Shown here one piece after another: positions 12,489-36,828 of a stretch of 41,408 nucleotides of DNA; the stretch's first letter is position 1; each line of letters starts with the position of its first letter. The stretch covers positions 28,142,364-28,183,771 of the forward strand of contig NC_133620.1 in NCBI RefSeq assembly GCF_048593235.1, in the 5' to 3' direction. The notes beneath the pieces were generated by a model. It searched no databases. It had not been told where the DNA came from and was given only the letters and a program-made list of their open reading frames with translations. The stretch is from Sminthopsis crassicaudata (Eukaryota). The position numbers were made by a program, and so were the translations under genes.

Positions 12489-13549
12489 CTATCCCTGTTA
12501 TGGGTAAGGAGTCTGATACATTTTTTCCTTACCCAGTGAACCATGGAGCTAATATGAAAGGCCTTCTGGGGGAAGCAGCAGGAGCTGGGAGGGTGTAGGA
12601 GGAAGGTCTCTGATACAGGGAGCTTTATTGGCTATAGAATGAGTTCCAAGGAGTCAGTAGAGCTGAGTGGGGACTGGGGAAGAGCAGGTTGGGCTGAGGT
12701 GGATGGAATGAGATGGGGGAGGGCCACGGGAGGGGACTGCATTTTACTCAGTCATTCTGTTTCCCAGTGATGAGATCTTCCATGTTGGGTTTGGTTGGCA
12801 GAGGAACTTAATTAATTAATAATTTCCCCCAAATAGGCTGGGAGAAGGCACTGATAGAGATCCAGTCAGAAATGCAAGTTATGTGGGACCCCTGAAGCCA
12901 CCCTCTGTGGAGGTCTCGGCAGTCTCACCTCACCATGTCCTGTCATATCCCAGTCATGTCCCCAGGGTTATATTTTCCCTATAAAATCTATTTATGGGCC
13001 ATCCCTCCCATGGCCAATGCCAGTTACATATATAGCAGTGTGTGACCCTTTCAGTTTCTCCTTAGGAGACACTTCCCCCCCTTCTCTCTCTAGACTGATG
13101 CGGCCTCCAGGTGTCTTGGGGAAATCTAGGAACTTTTGTACCTTAAGCTCTTTTCCCCCTTCTCTGCAAATGAATAGGTCGTGGACTAAGAGAACCCTTA
13201 AGTTAATTGAAGAAAATGGGACAAAATTGCATCCAGCCAATAATTTGTTCCATTGCTGAAAAACTTGTTCTTCTTGCATAAACTTTTGCAATCAAAATAA
13301 TTTATATTAAATGAGGAAATATATGAATAATCTCTTAATTTGTATTTTAATAATATATATATATTATATAACATAATGTATATTTTAATTACATATTTTA
13401 ATAACATAATGTATATTAAAATATTTTGCCTCTGATACATACATCTATGCCATAGACATATAAATATTTTTCCTTTCATTAGTTCTGAAAAAAAATCTAA
13501 TTCCCCATTAGATTAAACATTTTAAATAGATTTTCAACCAATCTGCTTA

Positions 13550-14230
13550 AATTCATTTAGAATTCCTGGGTCTGTATCCCAAAGAGATCATAAAAGAAGG
13601 AAAAGGACCCACCTGTGCAAAAATATTTGTGGCAGCCCTTTTGGTAGTGGCAAGGAACCGGACACTGAGTGGACGCCCATGAGGTGGGGAATGGCTGAAT
13701 AAGTTGTGGTATATGCATGTTATGGAAAATGATTGAGCAGCAGGTGATTTCAGAGGCCTGGAGACAATTACATGAACTGATGCTAAATGGAGTGAATAGA
13801 ACCAAGAGAACATTGTTCACAACAACAAGATTATACAATGATCAAGCCTGATGGGCGTGGCTCTTTTCAACAGAGAAGTCATTCAGGCCAGTTCCAATAG
13901 ACTTGTGATGGAGAGAGCCAGCTGCAGCCGGAGAGGGGACCATGGAGACTGAATGTGGGTCACAACAGAGTATTTTCAACTTTTTTGTTATTGCTCGCTT
14001 GCACTTTTTTTCTTTCTCATTTTTTTTCCCTTTTTGATCTAATTCTTCTTGTGCAGCATGATAATTGTGGAAATACGTAGAGAAGAATTGCACATGTTTA
14101 ACCTAGATTGGATTACTTGCCATCTAGGGGAGGGGTGAGGGGAGGGAGGGAGAACACAAGGTTTTCCAAGGGTGAATGCTGAAAACTATGTTTGCATATA
14201 TTTGGAAAATAGAAAGCTATTTAAAAAAAG
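13550..14230 (+). mobile_element. L1 ORF2 end plus 3'UTR
   Basis: ctgggtctgtatcccaaagagatcata..gtggcagcccttttggtagtggcaaggaac..; ends in an A-rich tail. Confidence 0.88.
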
Positions 14231-15007
14231 AAAGAAAGAAAGTAATTGCAGTGACCATTCAGTGTTAGTGGGATTTTAGAGGCTGAATGAAAATTAAGTT
14301 TCTATACCCCAAGTCTCCGGGACAAGTTCTTGCTATGTAGCCAGAAAGGTAGATCTCTCCATTATGTAACATGCATTTTAATTGTAAAATATAAACTTTT
14401 TAGTTTTATTTTAGATCATTTGGGATAATTCTATATAAGGTTATAGTTCACCCTCCTCTCACTGTTCCTTAGTCTGACCTGAGCCCTTCCCCCACTTCAC
14501 TGATTATTGGGGGACATGGAAAGACTCCCACTAGTGCTTAGCCCTTCTTTGTGCCCCCCCCCTTTAGCTGAAATTTCTTTAACTTTAGACATTTCCCCAA
14601 CAGGTCAGCTCTTCATTCCTCAATCCCTAATTCCTCAATTCATGACATACAAGTTAGTTCCAGCCTTCCACCAAGCTGCCCACTCAGGAAAAAGGGACCT
14701 TAAAAGCCACACTTCTAAACCCCTATTTTAGAACGGCCTATGTTTACAAGATGTTAATTATAATTTTTGCTTTTATTCTTCAAGTCTGTGGTTGTTCTAA
14801 GAGCAAAACCATTCCCACAATGCTACAGATCTGCTTAGATAAGATGCCATATCAAAAGAGCCTATTTAAAATCCATTCAGCAAATTCTCTGATATTTTAT
14901 TAAGTGCATCATGGTCTCATTGATTCCCACCTCCCCTCATATCGGCCCTGAGATAGCTTCAGGCACAATGATTTGTAAGCTTTTTTTCTTTTTCTTTCTA
15001 TTTTTAG

Positions 15008-16337
15008 ATATGAAATCTCTGCCGAGAAAAATGGGGAGAGGGGAAAGACTATAAGTAATATTATTTCTAATAAATTTCTATAATTTGAATCCAGGGATGG
15101 ATGAAGACCAATAAATCAGAAAACCCGCCATCCCAGAGAAAGGCTACAGAACTTCAGAAGGTTTGTTCATCTGGACTAAAAAAAGGGAGTTTCACGGATA
15201 TATTTTTGAGGCCGAGTCTTCTAACTTGATTCCCCAAATTGTATTCCTTTCTATGAAAGATTCCCCCTTACTCCCGAGTCTGGCAAGAGGGTGAAATTCA
15301 TACCTGGAGTCAAACAACTCAGATCGCTTTGTCCTATCCCTTTTTTTCTCTTATAGCATAACTATATTCAGAGCAAGTGGTAAGCTTAAAAGCCATGAGC
15401 AAAGTCAAGTATAAAACCTTCCATTTCCTATCTGAAAACATGTAGTCCTTAGGTAAATGAATATTTGGCCTGGTCATCTGCCTGTTACTAGAAATATACC
15501 TTATTTTCAGATAAATCCAACATATGTACAAATATTTATACAATAATCTTCCGGCTTTGATTTGATGATTTAGAGAACTTTAGTGCAAAGTTTATTTTTT
15601 TAAAATGTAAGAGTTTTTTGGGTTGGTTTTTTTTTTGTTTGTTTGTTATATCCATGCAAAAAGTCAATTCTACTTAAGCTAATGGCAAATAACATCTGTG
15701 TGTCCTGTGTGTCTGTGGTACAAACATGTTTTCTTATAAATAATTATTTGATATGCACAGACCACGCCATTGGCTTGCTGAGAAGCTGTGACACTGGCCT
15801 TCTAACCCCCCCCCCCAGTTCTCCAGGCAATGGACTTTTGATTAAAATCCCATTCCAAGTGGGGCTCTCTGGAAACTCCATCTTTACCGTGTCCAAATAG
15901 GGCATCAGCAGGGAATATGACCTTGGCTTTCTATCTCCCCAGGGAAGCCTGTTTTTACTCCCGATGCAGAGGAAATTCCTCAGGAGGAAGAGCCAGGCCA
16001 GCCCAAGGACAGCAACTCTCTGCAGTGACTGGCCTTCATGTCCCCAAACTGTGAGTAAGGCACTTAAAACTGATGATTATCTCCCCTCTGCTGACAGACT
16101 CTATCTTCAGAGAAGGAGATGTTTATATTCCCTTTGAACACACACCTCCCGGGCGAGAGCTCTGTTCTTGGCTCTCTCTCAAGCTCTCCCTGTCCCTCCC
16201 TGTGGGTTCCTGTCAGGGGGTGCCAGGACAAAGCCTGCTTCCAACCCGTCGTCCTCTCCCCGTTGCCCAAGTCCTTTGGAACACCTTGGCACCTGTGTCC
16301 GTGGCCACCCGAGGGACCCCTTTACTACTGTCCCTGA
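15008..16337 (+). other. Candidate unannotated multi-exon transcript (coding, non-coding or decayed gene)
   Basis: Splice-like signals define blocks 15008/15095-15160, 15357-15379, 15511-15606, 15943-16050 and 16217 onward. No homologue recognised. Confidence 0.3.
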
Positions 16338-16519
16338 CCTCCACTAGTTAGGTTTGTTTTCTTCCAAGATTTCAGAGATTCACCTTCACGTGACCAGCAC
16401 AGGAGCTACTTTCAGAAGATGAGATCATCTCCCCATACTCCAAAGGACTTTGGATCTCATTTTTTAAAAGGGAAACTTTAACCAGTGTGGTCTATGGACC
16501 CGACATGGACAACTAGAGA

Positions 16520-16600
16520 TCCTCGGCTCCACCCGCCAATAATGGCAAATGTCGGGGTCTCCCAGGCTCTCCCTCCCCCGCCAATCACAGGTGTTTTTCC
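16520..16600. promoter_or_regulatory. Tandem GC-box/CCAAT modules in a weak CpG cluster
   Basis: ccacccgCCAATaa and cccccgCCAATca ~45 bp apart; CpGs retained across ~16150-16680. Confidence 0.35.
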
Positions 16601-17157
16601 TGTGGTCTCGCGTATGAATTCTAATAACAGCAGATTTCTTTAGTACTCTCCCATAACAGAATTTGTGAAGCGCCTACTGTGTTCCAGGCACAAAGGAGGC
16701 ACTAGACAGTGTCTACATTTGGAATTAGGGAGAGGAAGAAAGACTAAAGACAGGCTCTGGCCTAACATACAAACAACTTGGGACAAGTGAGCTATAGCCG
16801 GTATTCCTCAGAGACAACCTGGGGGAGATTTGAGCAGAATCCGGCTTAAATGGACTTTCTTCCCCAGCCTCCATGAGGTTAGAAGGAGCCCTTTGGCAGA
16901 TGGAAGCTTGGAGAGCGTCCGTGACCAGCCAGAACCCCCTAGGTGGACGTTACCACAGCTGGTTCCCAAAGCCAAGTCTCCCAAACTCCCTGCAGTTTGG
17001 ATGTGGTCTTCCTCCATTTAACCCTCAGCCATTTGGATTCCTTTAGGTTCCTAGATAACTGAACAAGGTCTTGCTGTTCAAGAATCCCTCCTTTGTACTT
17101 TTGTGACTTGTCCTGACACTGTCATCAGGGGAGAGAACTTAGACCCACTAAGTCTAA

Positions 17158-17299
17158 TTTTTCCTCTGAGACAATTGGGGTTAAGTGACTTGCCCAGGGT
17201 CACACAGATGGAAGTGTTAAGTATCTGAGACCAGATTTGAACTCGCGTCCTCCTGACTTCAGGGCTGGGGCTCCATCCCCTGCGCCACCTGGCTGCCCC
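17158..17299 (-). repeat. WSINE1-type SINE
   Basis: Reverse of ggggcagc.aggtggcgcag..gaagtcaggaggac.cgagttcaaatctggtctcaga..gtgtgaccctgggcaagtcacttaacccc. Confidence 0.85.
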
Positions 17300-18715: not shown

Positions 18716-19049
18716 CTTGTCCTGGTGTCTGTGTTTAAGAGAGATTCCCCTGCTAGCTATCCTTCTCTTTGGATTTCAATACCATGCGTCAGCCTGGGAC
18801 TTCCCTCAGCACTGGGCCTTCTCACCCTCACCTTTCTCTCATTAATCACCCACTGTAGCATTGTCACCCTGAAACATTCCTCTGCTGTGCTGGCCCCCTT
18901 TCCCCATTGATGAGTTCCTTTAGGAGCCTCTATTTTAGGGGGGCTCCCAAGCAAGGTGACTTTCTGTATTTCAACAGTGTGTCTCCTCTACCAGGTATCT
19001 TTGACGCGGTCGGGACCAATAATGTGATTTAGGAGAGCAATTGATTGGT

Positions 19050-19701
19050 GTAGGCACCCAGTGTTGGGGCTCCGTTATGTGAAGAATTCACAATGGCTGC
19101 TCTCTTTGGCAAAAACTAGGTTTATTTAGGAGAAGAGGTTACAGACAAAATGAAGAGATACAATAAACACCAGGAGCGGTGAATGTGAAATAGAGTGGGA
19201 GGGGATTTAGTTAGCAAAGAAATTAATAATCAGTGACGGAAAACACAAGTTCCCCAATGGAACTTAGATTAACCAGGAGAAAGGAAACACCCACAAAACT
19301 GGAGTATGTCCTCAGCTGGCAGGCTAGATAGCAAAAGAGATTCAACACCCGAAAAGAGTTAGTTATAAGGAAAAAGAACCATGGCACATGGGGGCAAGTT
19401 GGGAGAGACCCCACAAAGCCCCATAAAGACACATGGCATGGATGAGGGGTGAGGGGAAAGACACCATGGCTCAGAGTGCTCTGGAGGGATTCAGCAAAGA
19501 TGGCGTGAGCCGAGGACAGGTTTAGAGGGGAATCCAAGCTTGGGAGTTTGACAGGAGTCAGATTTCTGACAAAACAAGGTGGGGCGGCCCATGATCTCCT
19601 CAGAGGTGAGAACATGAGCCTAAACAGACTCCTATCGCAATCCCCCATTAATATTCTGATTTTTTCTCAGTTAATCACTCCCAATTATCATCATCTTCAC
19701 A
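19050..19701 (-). mobile_element. ERV1-like LTR
   Basis: Minus strand starts TGTGAAG at 19701; AATAAA at 19121-19126; ..gaattcttcaca..ccccaacactgggtgcctaca end. TSD not identified, so the left boundary is uncertain. Confidence 0.7.
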
Positions 19702-20319: not shown

Positions 20320-21000
20320 ACTTTATAGAGAGAAATTTGAAACTGTGCCCAAAGGGCTTTCAAACTGTGCATACCCTTTGATCCACCAGTGTTACTACTG
20401 GGCTTATATCCCAAAGAGATCTTAAAGAAGGGAAAGGGCAAGAATGTTTGTGGCAGCCCTCTTTGTGGGGGCCAGGAACTGGAAACTGGATGCCCATCAG
20501 ATGGGGAATGGCTGAACAAATTATGCTGTATGAATGTAATGGAATATTATTGTTCTGTAAGAAACGGCCAGCAGGATGATTTCAGAAAGACCTGGAGAGA
20601 CTGACAGGAACTGATACTGAATAAAGTGAGCAGAACCAGGAGATGATTGTACACAGCAACAAGACTGTACAATGATCAATTCTGATGGACGTGGCCCTTC
20701 AACAATGAGATGACCAGTTCCAATGGTCTTCTGATGGAGAGAGCCAGCTACACTCAGAGAGAGACTGTGGGGACTGAGTGAGGATCACCACACCACACTT
20801 TGATTCTTTTTGTTGTCTGCTTGCATTTTGTTTCCTTTCTGATCTTATTTTTCTTGTGCAACATATTAGTAGAAACATGTATAGAAGAATTGCCATCTAG
20901 GGGAAAGGGTAAGAGGAAGGGAGGGAAAAAATTTGGAACACAAGGTTTTGCAAGGGTGAATATTGAAAGTCATCTATGCACATGTTTTGAAAATAAAAAT
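20320..21000 (+). mobile_element. L1 ORF2 end plus 3'UTR
   Basis: LLGLYPKEILKKGKG..MEYYCSVRN motifs; 3'UTR with AATAAA. Confidence 0.88.
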
Positions 21001-29366: not shown

Positions 29367-30775
29367 TCATTTGATTCTTGTGGCTGAAGTCCTGTGGGCC
29401 AGGGCAGTAGCCACACTTGGCTTCTGGGGTGGGACACTTAAGGAAAACGGGGCATAGCTACCCTAGAACCCAACCTCCCTGTTCTGGGGAACAGAAAGCC
29501 AATGTTCTCTCACCATAGTGGACTAATAAGAAACATGACTGAGGACACGTCTGCATGCTGCTCTCCGGAGCAGGGACCACACACCTGGGCCCCAGGACAC
29601 TGCCAAGAAGCTCAGGGGATCTGAGGGCGAGCCACGAATGTCTCAGACTCAAACTGCCTTGGACTGACACAGAGATAAGGGCTAGAGTGGGCTGCAAAGC
29701 TTGAAAGGCTACAGAAGAGGGCGATCCTTAGCTACAGCTTTCTACAGGAGAATCGAAGGGCACAACTTCAATGGGTGAATGACCAGATGCATTTCCACTC
29801 TGGAAGACTTCCTCCTACATCCTCCCACAGAATCTGGGGAGGAAACACGCAAAGAGCAGCCCCAGTTCTTCCTTCCCTGGGGGACACCTAGGGAACTTTC
29901 AGAGCCCGGCCTCTCCCTGTCCTTAAATGATAGTCCAACTTCCCTACCCAGTCCTCCCTCAGGCACTCCCCTCCCCCAAACTTTGTCACATGTAACTCTG
30001 AGTCTTCAGACTCCACAATCAAAATCTGTGTGCTAGGGTTACCGAGGTGAGGCTTCCTCGGTGGGCCTGACCCAGGATCCACAAAGCACCAGCAGCCTCC
30101 CGTCTGGGGATCTCTCCTGGCCTCCTGTTCAATTCTGGGCCTGCAGCCTTCAGTAGAATCTGCCCGGATCATGGGCCACCACCTGCCTGCCCGGACATGA
30201 GCAGAGGCCCAAGCCAGCCTGGAGAAAGCTTTAGGCCTGGTTTTTCTGCACGGTTTTCTCTGAGGAGGCAGGCTCTGACGTCATTTCACACCCCCACAAG
30301 TGGAGATCTCACCTCCCCGGGCACTGAGCTGGGTCTTTTCCATCCCATTAGCAAACAACCTTCTCCCTGCTCTGAGCCTGGCGTGACATCAGTGGGAAGA
30401 CTGCTCGCTCAACTGTTAAATGTGTCCAAGGACTCAGGGCAGCGTCGTGTTCCAGGGGCCCCGGGGCTTTTCCCTCTCCCACAGCCTCCCCCATTCTGCG
30501 CTGTGGACATGGAAGGAAGGCCCAGTCTGCCGACTGAAGAGTGGTGTTTCAGCACCTTCCGGGTGAACGGCACCTGAGCCACAGAGACAGAAGCCCTTTC
30601 CTGCTTTCCAGAAGCTCACGGTCCCGTGGGGAGATGCCCTCTGGAGGCTCAGCCTCCAAGCAGGTGGTCTGGCCTCTTCTTTCAGGTCATTCCTACTGTT
30701 CCATTTTGGGTCTTCAGTAGCTGTGGCTGCAGCCGCTGTAGCCATGGTGCCCGGGCTGCTACAGCAGATGTGGTG

Positions 30776-31847
30776 TGTTAGGTTCTTACTAAGTGCTAAG
30801 TCGGTATTTGACAATTTTCTACTTCTGATACTAAAGAGCGGAAAGAGACATATATGTGCCAAAATGTTTGTGGCAGCTCTTTTTGTTGTAGCTAGAAACT
30901 GGAAGATGAATGGATGTCCTTCAGTTGGAGAATGGTTGGGTAAATTATGGTATATGAAGGTTATGGAATATTATTGCTCGGTAAGAAATGACCAGCAGGA
31001 GGAATATAGAGAGGCCTGGAGAGACTTAAATCAACTGATGCTGAGTGAAATGAGCAGAACCAGAAGATCACTGTACACTTCAACAACAATACGGTATGAG
31101 GATGTATTCTGATGGAAGTGGAAATCTTCAACATAAAGAAGATCCAACTCACTTCCAGTTGATCAATGATGGACAGGGGTAGCTGCACCCAGAGAAGAAA
31201 CACTGGGAGGGGAATGAAAATTGTTAGCACTAATATCTGTCTGCCCAGGTTGCATGTACTTCGGATCTAATGTTTATTGTGCAACAAGAAAGTGATATTC
31301 GCACACATGTATTGTACCTAGACTATATTGTAACACATGTAAAATGTATGGTATTGCCTGTCGTCGAGGGGAGGGAATAGAGGGAGGGGGGGTAAATTGG
31401 AAAAATGAATACAAGGGATAATATTATAAAATATATATATATATATATATAATAATAAAAAAAAAAAAAAAAAAAAAAATTTTCTACTTCTGGCCTTTCC
31501 TGGGAGTTTGACTTGTGAATTCCTGGGGAGGAGCTTGAGTGCTTGGGAGGAGCAAGCTCATTGGTTGAAGTGGTTCTTCCCAGAAGCCCTTGCATTATCC
31601 CACGCCCATTCTCTGGGAGGATAAAAGAGGGCAGCTCTGGAGGAAAAAAGTCAGTCTCTGCTCTAGACCAGGCTTGAGGCGGCTCTCTGCAGGAAGGGAA
31701 GTCACTTCTCTGGACCAGAGTTAACAGCAACTGCCTGGAGACAGCGGTTCTCTACAGGAAGAAGAGTCTGGCCAGGAGATTGAGTTGCCCCAGCAGATCT
31801 CCTCCCAGAGAGCGATCGGCAGCTTCTGGAGACGACAGCACGCTACA
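30776..31847 (+). mobile_element. ERV solo LTR with 6-bp TSD GTGGTG in NSUN4 intron 2, split by an L1
   Basis: TGTTAGG..CACGCTACA; GTGGTG at 30770-30775 and 31848-31853; same family as 150-512. Confidence 0.93.
30828..31477 (+). mobile_element. Young 5'-truncated L1 (650 bp) with 15-bp TSD
   Basis: AATTTTCTACTTCTG at 30813-30827 and 31478-31492; open ORF2 end KMFVAALFVVARNW..TTIRYEDVF*; (TA)n and polyA tail. Confidence 0.95.
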
Positions 31848-32806
31848 GTGGTGGACTTGCCAGGCCCTCTGCTGCTTCAGTCAGGCTGCCCGGTGTGGGG
31901 ATGGCTGCTTCCCCAGGACTGTGGGCTCCTGTTCCCGCCTGACTGCTGGTGGCAGCTGGTCAGGAGTCGTTGTTGGCGGCTCCCTTCTCTGCAGCGATTT
32001 CCCCCCTCCAGAGGGGCTGGAAACAGCTCTGGCAGTCTGGAGCGCTGCTATTCCCAAGGCTCCTGTGTCAGCGTCCTGCTTGTGGCCATCAGTCCGGGGG
32101 AACGGCCTGGCCCATCTCCCGTGTCTCCCCCAGGGCCCCGTGACATCGGCGGCCGATCCCGGGCCTGTCCCCATCCCACCTGCAGGTCAGGCTTTCAAGG
32201 CTGAGAGGATGGTGCCAGGAGAACGGCGGCTCAGCCATAAGGGGCCGCCCTTGGAATCCCCCGAGCATCATTGGGTGTGGAGCCTCTTGGGGAGTGGACC
32301 CTCAGGCCCAGACTCACCCCGAGCAGGACCAGTGGCTGGGCTGCAGGAGCCTTGAGCTGAGCATGGGGAGGAGGCTGGCCTCCCAAAGCAGCTCAGGCAG
32401 GATGAGACAAGGGCTACTGGGCCCCGGGGCCCCGAGTCCGGCCCCCAGCTCTGCCGCCCAGTACCGGCGGGGCCTCAGCAAGGGAGGGGGAGGCTGGGAG
32501 TGCTGTGCTCTCACTCCATGTCCTCCCTACTTTCTTCAGCAGTAGCCGGACCACCCCCTCCTCCTCGGCATTCCCCCTTCCAGAAACCCCAGGATTTCAC
32601 CTGTCAGCTCCCGCCAGGCCCCTCCGAGCCCCGGGGCTGCTCCCCAGCCAGCACCTGCCTGGCCCCACTCTCCTGTGACAGCCCCAGGCACCCTCCTTCT
32701 CTTGACCTGTTTCTTGAACTGAAAAGTAGAGTCCAGGAGACACCCCCCCCCCCGGGTTGCTAGGAGGTCCCAGCCCTAAAGCTCTCACCTGCCCTCCAGG
32801 GTCCTA

Positions 32807-36804: not shown

Positions 36805-36828
36805 CACCAAATCTTCTTCTTCTTCTTC
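36805..36828 (-). CDS. UQCRH: UQCRH exon 2 (24-nt micro-exon EEEEEDLV)
   Basis: tttctcttgtag|GAA GAA GAA GAA GAA GAT TTG GTG|gtaaga; phase 0/0. Confidence 0.92.

What the first reader, a model, noticed from the sequence alone, without database searches (positions are those of the whole stretch)
15008..16337. Candidate hidden plus-strand multi-exon gene with a 23-nt micro-exon
Seen: in a stretch where I recognise no repeat, plus-strand splice signals cluster. There is a ~27-nt pyrimidine tract with AG at 15007, a donor AAG|GTTTGT at 15161, a block cccttttttttctcttatag|23 nt|GTAAGC (15357-15379), a block tttctatctccccag|108 nt|GTGAGT (15943-16050), and an acceptor at 16216. Joining ATG15101-15160, 15357-15379, 15943-16050 and 16217-16337 gives 312 nt with no internal stop: MKTNKSENPPSQRKATELQKHNYIQSKWEACFYSRCRGNSSGGRARPAQGQQLSAVTGLHVPKLGCQDKACFQPVVLSPLPKSFGTPWHLCPWPPEGPLYYCP* (103 aa). 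Inference: a lineage-specific small protein or spliced lncRNA convergent with NSUN4. Caveats: I chose the splice sites by eye, the Kozak context is weak, no nearby AATAAA was found, and I recognise no homologue.
Basis: partly seen in the sequence, partly recalled or inferred. Interest (0 to 1): 0.7.

Follow-up and report, generated by a model that had tools for sequence, protein, structure and literature searches.

The report
Old LTR retroelement, not hidden gene
The supposed hidden four-exon gene lies inside a decayed retrovirus-type repeat with many copies elsewhere in the genome; it is likely not a protein gene, although one of its splice signals is likely used in a faint non-coding RNA.

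Summary
The splice dinucleotides and the 103-codon joined frame are in the sequence as written, but 'no repeat' is wrong. The stretch is the internal part of an old LTR retroelement in sense orientation. It gives 82 further matches on 7 contigs, the longest 64-72% identical. Copies carry paired LTRs, with a purine tract before the right-hand one. No gag/env or Pfam remnant was found. Of 20 copies, 18 lack at least one of the six intron dinucleotides, and mismatches show no codon pattern. No credible protein relative exists. Contigs of 4 runs show none of the three proposed joints. Verdict: ordinary LTR relic, probably with faint spliced non-coding transcription; four-exon protein gene not supported.

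The parts
12768..13005 (+). 5' part of the element's left LTR (rest of this LTR lost)
   Evidence: matches the start of both LTRs of L012 and the right LTR of L023, 72-77%; many genome matches
13033..13562 (+). internal segment that follows the left LTR in copies
   Evidence: collinear with L010, L020, L021, L027 at 68-82%
13566..14240 (+). unrelated interspersed repeat inserted in the element (L1 3' end; label recalled, by eye)
   Evidence: matches 20328-21000 and 10800-11050 of the window and many flanks
14240..14399 (+). internal segment; about 1.5-2 kb present in L010 and L022 is missing behind it
   Evidence: L010 1239 to 3275 and L022 1870 to 3414 join at window 14399/14401
14401..16477 (+). 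main internal segment of the LTR element; holds the whole proposed gene; right LTR absent in this copy
   Evidence: matches end near 16477-16500
   Evidence: ATG in 17 of 20 copies, GT in 19 of 20; no joint seen
   Evidence: AG in 13 of 19 copies, GT in 5 of 18; X1 contig 15347-15440 runs through the donor
   Evidence: AG in 2 of 11 copies, GTGAGT in 0 of 9; X5 and X6 contigs run through 15943
16051..16368 (+). 318-nt GT..AG skip, likely an intron of a faint RNA
   Evidence: X6, 1 contig, depth 4.8, 30 letters on the short side, no ambiguity of position
16369..16578 (+). sequence behind the observed joint (likely exon; end not known)
   Evidence: X6 record 17
   Evidence: X1, X2 and X6 contigs run through 16217; no homologue of the 72-aa ORF containing it
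19021..19487 (-). separate LTR of the same family, opposite orientation
   Evidence: matches the 3' half of the copies' LTRs, 67-85%; left end placed by eye

Best explanation
The stretch is the internal part of an old LTR retroelement with many diverged copies in this genome, likely non-coding, and the four-exon 103-aa gene is likely not made, though one donor (16050) is likely used in a faint non-coding plus-strand RNA. Shown: repeat nature, LTR flanks in copies, sense orientation, truncation of this copy, and one GT..AG joint 16050-16369 in one contig. Inferred: several gene-like signals (ATG, first donor, acceptors at 15356 and 16216) are inherited features of the element. The GTGAGT donor and the AG at 15942 likely arose by mutation in this copy. 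Weak plus-strand transcription, perhaps from the surviving 5' part of the left LTR or another cryptic promoter, would let the spliceosome pick up that donor, giving a transposon-derived transcript with only 41-52-codon frames across the joint and no evidence of function.
For: 82 further matches on C1-C7, longest 64-72% identical. All 20 fetched copies cover 15101-15300. LTR pairs flank the internal part in 5 of 19 loci examined (L012, L017, L018, L023, L025; 69-85% identical). The six right-hand LTR starts found by motif have 10-12 purines in the 13 bases before them, against 6-8 for three left-hand starts, which fixes plus orientation. No Pfam match near its cut-off in window 15500-16600 or in L023 internal sequence, six frames each. 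No tblastn hit in window 12701-16800 with 25 own-genome gag/env loci. 18 of 20 copies lack at least one of the six intron dinucleotides; of the 6 alignable at all six, none keeps more than 4. Mismatch rates by codon position are 209/1247, 203/1244 and 232/1233. One GT..AG joint in X6, where contigs also run through 15943 and 16217 without a joint.
Against: The spliced RNA rests on one contig of one run of unrecorded kind, at depth 4.8; promoter, ends and level are unknown. The motif cluster is above background (1 of 780 tiles; micro-exon block 0 in 600 kb; 0 of 200 shuffles). Proposed exons 1-3 are slightly closer to the copies (0.83, 0.83, 0.84) than the proposed introns (0.77-0.78), though exon 4 is not (0.76); 4 of the 7 best 60-nt windows of 48 fall in them. 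Comparison with paralogues cannot detect constraint that began after this copy was co-opted, and no orthologous locus of another species could be examined. Contigs drop rare isoforms, and only 4 of 6 holding runs were laid.
Confidence: 0.72

Rival explanations
1. Silent LTR relic: the single joint is an assembly artefact or a genomic deletion allele and nothing is spliced here.
For: One contig, one run whose kind is not on record, depth 4.8; not seen in X1, X2 or X5. The same run also has an unspliced contig 16021-16263.
Against: The skip has exact GT..AG ends with no positional ambiguity and starts at a GTGAGT donor singled out beforehand from sequence alone; no other letters in the contig, so it is not from a 65-72% paralogue.
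Confidence: 0.14
2. Co-opted functional lncRNA: the element supplies exons to a regulated plus-strand RNA that acts on the convergent NSUN4-like gene or on the amidase (FAAH-like) gene to the left.
For: Spliced joint in X6; X2, X5 and X6 contigs cluster in 15.7-17.2 kb. Donor is specific to this copy (0 of 9 copies). Transposons often give splice sites to lncRNAs (PMC3636048, passages).
Against: Low depth; no 5' or 3' end known; the NSUN4-like stop lies about 10 kb away and no overlap was shown; in X2 a short inversion alters the sequence just 5' of 15943 (read by eye).
Confidence: 0.1
3. One reading: a lineage-specific four-exon gene with a 23-nt micro-exon encoding a 103-aa protein, born de novo from the element.
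For: Frame and dinucleotides are real; sites score in the range of neighbouring genes' presumed sites; the micro-exon block is rare; the donor at 16050 is used.
Against: None of three joints in 4 runs; in X6 the donor is joined to 16369 and contigs read through 15943 and 16217. No homologue of the exon-4 ORF; only a spurious tandem-repeat hit for the exon-3 ORF. No codon pattern. A 120-aa alternative chain can be drawn in the same stretch, and 107- and 131-aa chains in 2 of 20 paralogues.
Confidence: 0.04

Closest known systems
Non-autonomous LTR/ERV internal sequences of mammals (MER4-group or MER41-type '-int' elements; names recalled, no repeat library on hand)
   Same: Paired LTRs of roughly 0.7-0.9 kb starting TG, a purine tract before the 3' LTR, a variably deleted internal part of 2-6 kb with no detectable coding remnant, old dispersed copies.
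   Different: Family name and ERV class could not be assigned; primer-binding site inconclusive (best 11-12 of 18 against an incomplete tRNA set); this copy has lost its right LTR and part of the left.
Transposon-derived exons and splice sites of vertebrate lncRNAs (PMC3636048; abstract and passages seen)
   Same: A splice donor and acceptor lying in or at the edge of an LTR element, used in a transcript with no long frame.
   Different: Only one joint in one contig; transcript ends, level and function not shown.
De novo protein genes from transposon sequence (recalled class)
   Same: An ORF could be assembled from repeat sequence without homologues.
   Different: No evidence for the exon chain, for translation or for constraint.

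Membership tests
LTR retroelement (internal part) | dispersed multi-copy family | tested here: met
   82 further matches on 7 contigs, 40 of 605 candidates scored
LTR retroelement (internal part) | direct long terminal repeats on both sides | tested here: met
   pairs in 5 of 19 loci; in the window only the 5' part of the left LTR survives
LTR retroelement (internal part) | polypurine tract directly before the 3' LTR | tested here: met
   10-12 purines of 13 before six right-hand LTR starts, 6-8 before three left-hand ones
LTR retroelement (internal part) | primer-binding site matching a host tRNA | tested here: inconclusive
   TGG-starting stretches behind left LTR ends match tRNA ends at best 11-12 of 18; tRNA set incomplete
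LTR retroelement (internal part) | target-site duplication | tested here: inconclusive
   none recognisable by eye at the copy ends printed
Autonomous ERV (gag/pol/env) | recognisable gag, pol or env remnants | tested here: not met
   Pfam scans of window 15500-16600 and L023 internal part; tblastn with 20 gag and 5 env loci. pol was covered only by the Pfam scans and by what the gag/env flanks hold
Protein-coding multi-exon gene | the proposed splice joints exist in RNA | tested here: inconclusive
   0 of 3 joints in contigs of 4 runs; contigs show presence, not absence
Protein-coding multi-exon gene | codon-position pattern of change | tested here: not met
   0.168, 0.163, 0.188 against paralogues; blind to recent co-option
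Protein-coding multi-exon gene | homologous proteins | tested here: not met
   only unspliced ORFs holding exons 3 and 4 were searched
Protein-coding multi-exon gene | conservation at the orthologous locus in related species | not testable with these tools
   the genome has no relatives held
Transposon-derived spliced lncRNA | canonical splice joint within repeat sequence | tested here: met
   16050 to 16369, GT..AG, one contig in X6
Transposon-derived spliced lncRNA | defined start, end, strand and reproducible expression | not testable with these tools
   only contigs were available

The most novel reading that the evidence does not exclude
A decayed LTR element between the NSUN4-like and FAAH-like genes has gained new splice signals in this copy and is being exonised into a lineage-specific plus-strand transcript, one rarer isoform of which includes the 23-nt micro-exon and encodes a de novo 103-aa protein.
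Probability: 0.04. Interest if true: 0.55.

Novelty: new member of a known kind. Interest (0 to 1): 0.12.

Why it matters
As it stands it is ordinary: old LTR relics and faint transposon-derived spliced RNAs are common in mammalian genomes. It is a useful caution that LTR internal sequence can carry gene-like splice clusters that escape recognition by eye. If the spliced RNA proved regulated, or the protein isoform real, it would be a dated case of gene birth from a retroelement with many paralogues as built-in controls.

Tried and rejected
No RNA holder listed: the run search listed none on record as RNA; this is no evidence either way. X5 and X6 have no cover over the proposed exons 1 and 2, likewise no evidence. 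A second joint in X1 (16364 to 16410, ends CA..AC, side 22) is non-canonical and was set aside. A by-eye idea that the minus strand of 15850-16150 is a gag capsid remnant was rejected: no Pfam hit, no tblastn hit, and the purine tract gives plus orientation. The one library hit for the 45-aa exon-3 ORF (E 1.2e-6) is a 17-residue match repeated 8 times in a tandem-repeat protein and was rejected. Weak Pfam rows (Luteo_Vpg E 0.052; two rows E 0.06 and 0.19) are far under their cut-offs. The primer-binding-site comparison was inconclusive. The global-alignment tally contained misaligned rows and was replaced by the local-alignment tally; they differ most at acceptor 15007 (13 of 18 against 4 of 10), so no firm claim is made for that site. 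Tandem and local repeat finders showed nothing relevant in the stretch. Earlier scan findings: none.

Full report
Observation. The statement that the stretch holds no repeat does not. Searching the own genome with 14900-16500 gave 82 matches besides itself on contigs C1-C7, from only 40 of 605 candidates scored. The longest run 1.1-1.6 kb at 64-67% identity.

Anatomy. Twenty of the best-scoring copies were fetched at 9.9 kb. All 20 cover window 15101-15300, and together they match 14401-16477. Several also match 13033-13562 and 14240-14399, with 1.5-2 kb between that the window lacks. An unrelated repeat sits at 13566-14240 (L1 label recalled). Direct repeats flank the shared body in 5 of 19 loci examined (L014 left out because of a tandem array), 69-85% identical. 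They begin with TG. The six right-hand starts found by motif have 10-12 purines in the preceding 13 bases, against 6-8 for three left-hand starts. The element is therefore an LTR retroelement on the plus strand. In the window only the first part of the left LTR survives (12768-13005), and the family match ends near 16477-16500 without a right LTR. With LTR pairs differing at roughly 8-19% of aligned positions and a recalled neutral rate near 2e-9 per site per year, the family would be some tens of millions of years old (inference).

Coding remnants. Pfam found nothing near a cut-off in six frames of window 15500-16600 or of the 4.7-kb internal part of L023. Twenty gag and five env loci of the own genome gave no tblastn hit in window 12701-16800; hits in the copies' loci fell in short inserted repeats or outside the element. 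The primer-binding site could not be assigned. The element is best described as non-autonomous; its class is open.

Splice signals in the copies (local alignments). Kept: ATG 17 of 20, GT 15161 19 of 20, AG 15356 13 of 19, AG 16216 6 of 6. Mostly not kept: GT 15380 5 of 18, AG 15942 2 of 11, GTGAGT at 16051 0 of 9 (GT alone 5 of 9), AG 16368 0 of 3. Background retention is a median 0.63 for GT and 0.74 for AG. Eighteen of 20 copies lack at least one of the six intron dinucleotides; the other two do not align at all six. Mismatches by codon position are 0.168, 0.163 and 0.188, with no coding pattern, although paralogues cannot show constraint that began later in this copy. Against my reading, proposed exons 1-3 are a little closer to the copies (0.83-0.84) than the proposed introns (0.77-0.78); exon 4 is not (0.76). 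Three of the seven best 60-nt windows lie in proposed intron 2.

Chance. This is within the range of sites picked by eye in the neighbouring genes. Two of 20 paralogues give such a chain within 2.4 kb. The micro-exon block did not recur in 600 kb of single strand, and 0 of 200 block shuffles gave any chain.

Proteins. The 72-aa unspliced ORF that holds the exon-4 peptide has no candidate among proteins of 39-126 aa. The 45-aa ORF that holds exon 3 gave one spurious hit. Exons 1 and 2 were too short to search alone, and the joined protein was not searched.

Transcripts. Six runs hold part of the stretch; four were laid on 14240-17170, all as contigs and none on record as RNA. None shows the three proposed joints. 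X6 shows one joint, 16050 to 16369, skipping 318 nt with GT..AG ends (1 contig, depth 4.8, 30 letters on the short side). X6 contigs also run through 15943 and 16217, X5 through 15943, X2 through 15943, 16050 and 16217, and X1 through 15379 and 16217; 14 pieces were not shown by the tool. Because X1, X2 and X5 may be DNA or unspliced RNA, read-through is weak evidence. Frames crossing the observed joint are 52, 46 and 41 aa.

Context. A minus-strand RsmB/F-family methyltransferase gene (weak exon hits, E 3e-5 and 0.005) and a UCR_hinge gene (E 1.5e-19) lie to the right. Amidase-family exons lie about 15 kb left of the window on the minus strand. The names NSUN4, UQCRH and FAAH are recalled from sequence and gene order. 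The element is intergenic, about 10 kb from the NSUN4-like stop codon.

Mechanism. Shown: LTR relic in sense orientation, and one canonical joint. Inferred: weak plus-strand transcription and opportunistic use of a donor that likely reached consensus by mutation in this copy. Untested: promoter, ends, level and function. This is the familiar way in which transposons supply splice sites to lncRNAs (PMC3636048, abstract and passages seen; other papers seen only as search listings; no supplements were read). Interest is low.

Noticed in passing
One contig, depth 14.6.
   Followed up: partly
window 19021-19487: Second LTR of the same family on the minus strand; several similar LTR-like repeats are visible by eye at about 120-500, 5510-5830, 10330-10800 and 30770-31850, the last interrupted by an L1-like piece inside an intron of the NSUN4-like gene.
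   Followed up: partly
G000:C4:28061221-28062106 and 28125124-28127072: Two separate minus-strand amidase-family gene copies left of the window, about 64 kb apart; the farther one may correspond to a FAAH duplicate (recalled: a pseudogene in humans). Its two matched exons show no stops.
   Followed up: no
L014 (G000:C7, near 61.66 Mb): In this copy a roughly 101-nt piece of the element's internal sequence has expanded into long tandem arrays.
   Followed up: no
window 36805-36828: A very short exon with a strong acceptor score, likely the true second exon of the UQCRH-like gene (picked by eye).
   Followed up: no
window 16520-16620: Two CCGCCAAT motifs (GC-box and CCAAT-like) just beyond the end of the element match; CpG observed/expected only about 0.4.
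   Followed up: partly
G000:C5:91.94-91.99 Mb: Tandem array of more than 30 tRNA genes at about 1.57-kb spacing; those fetched were called tRNA-Cys by ARAGORN.
   Followed up: no
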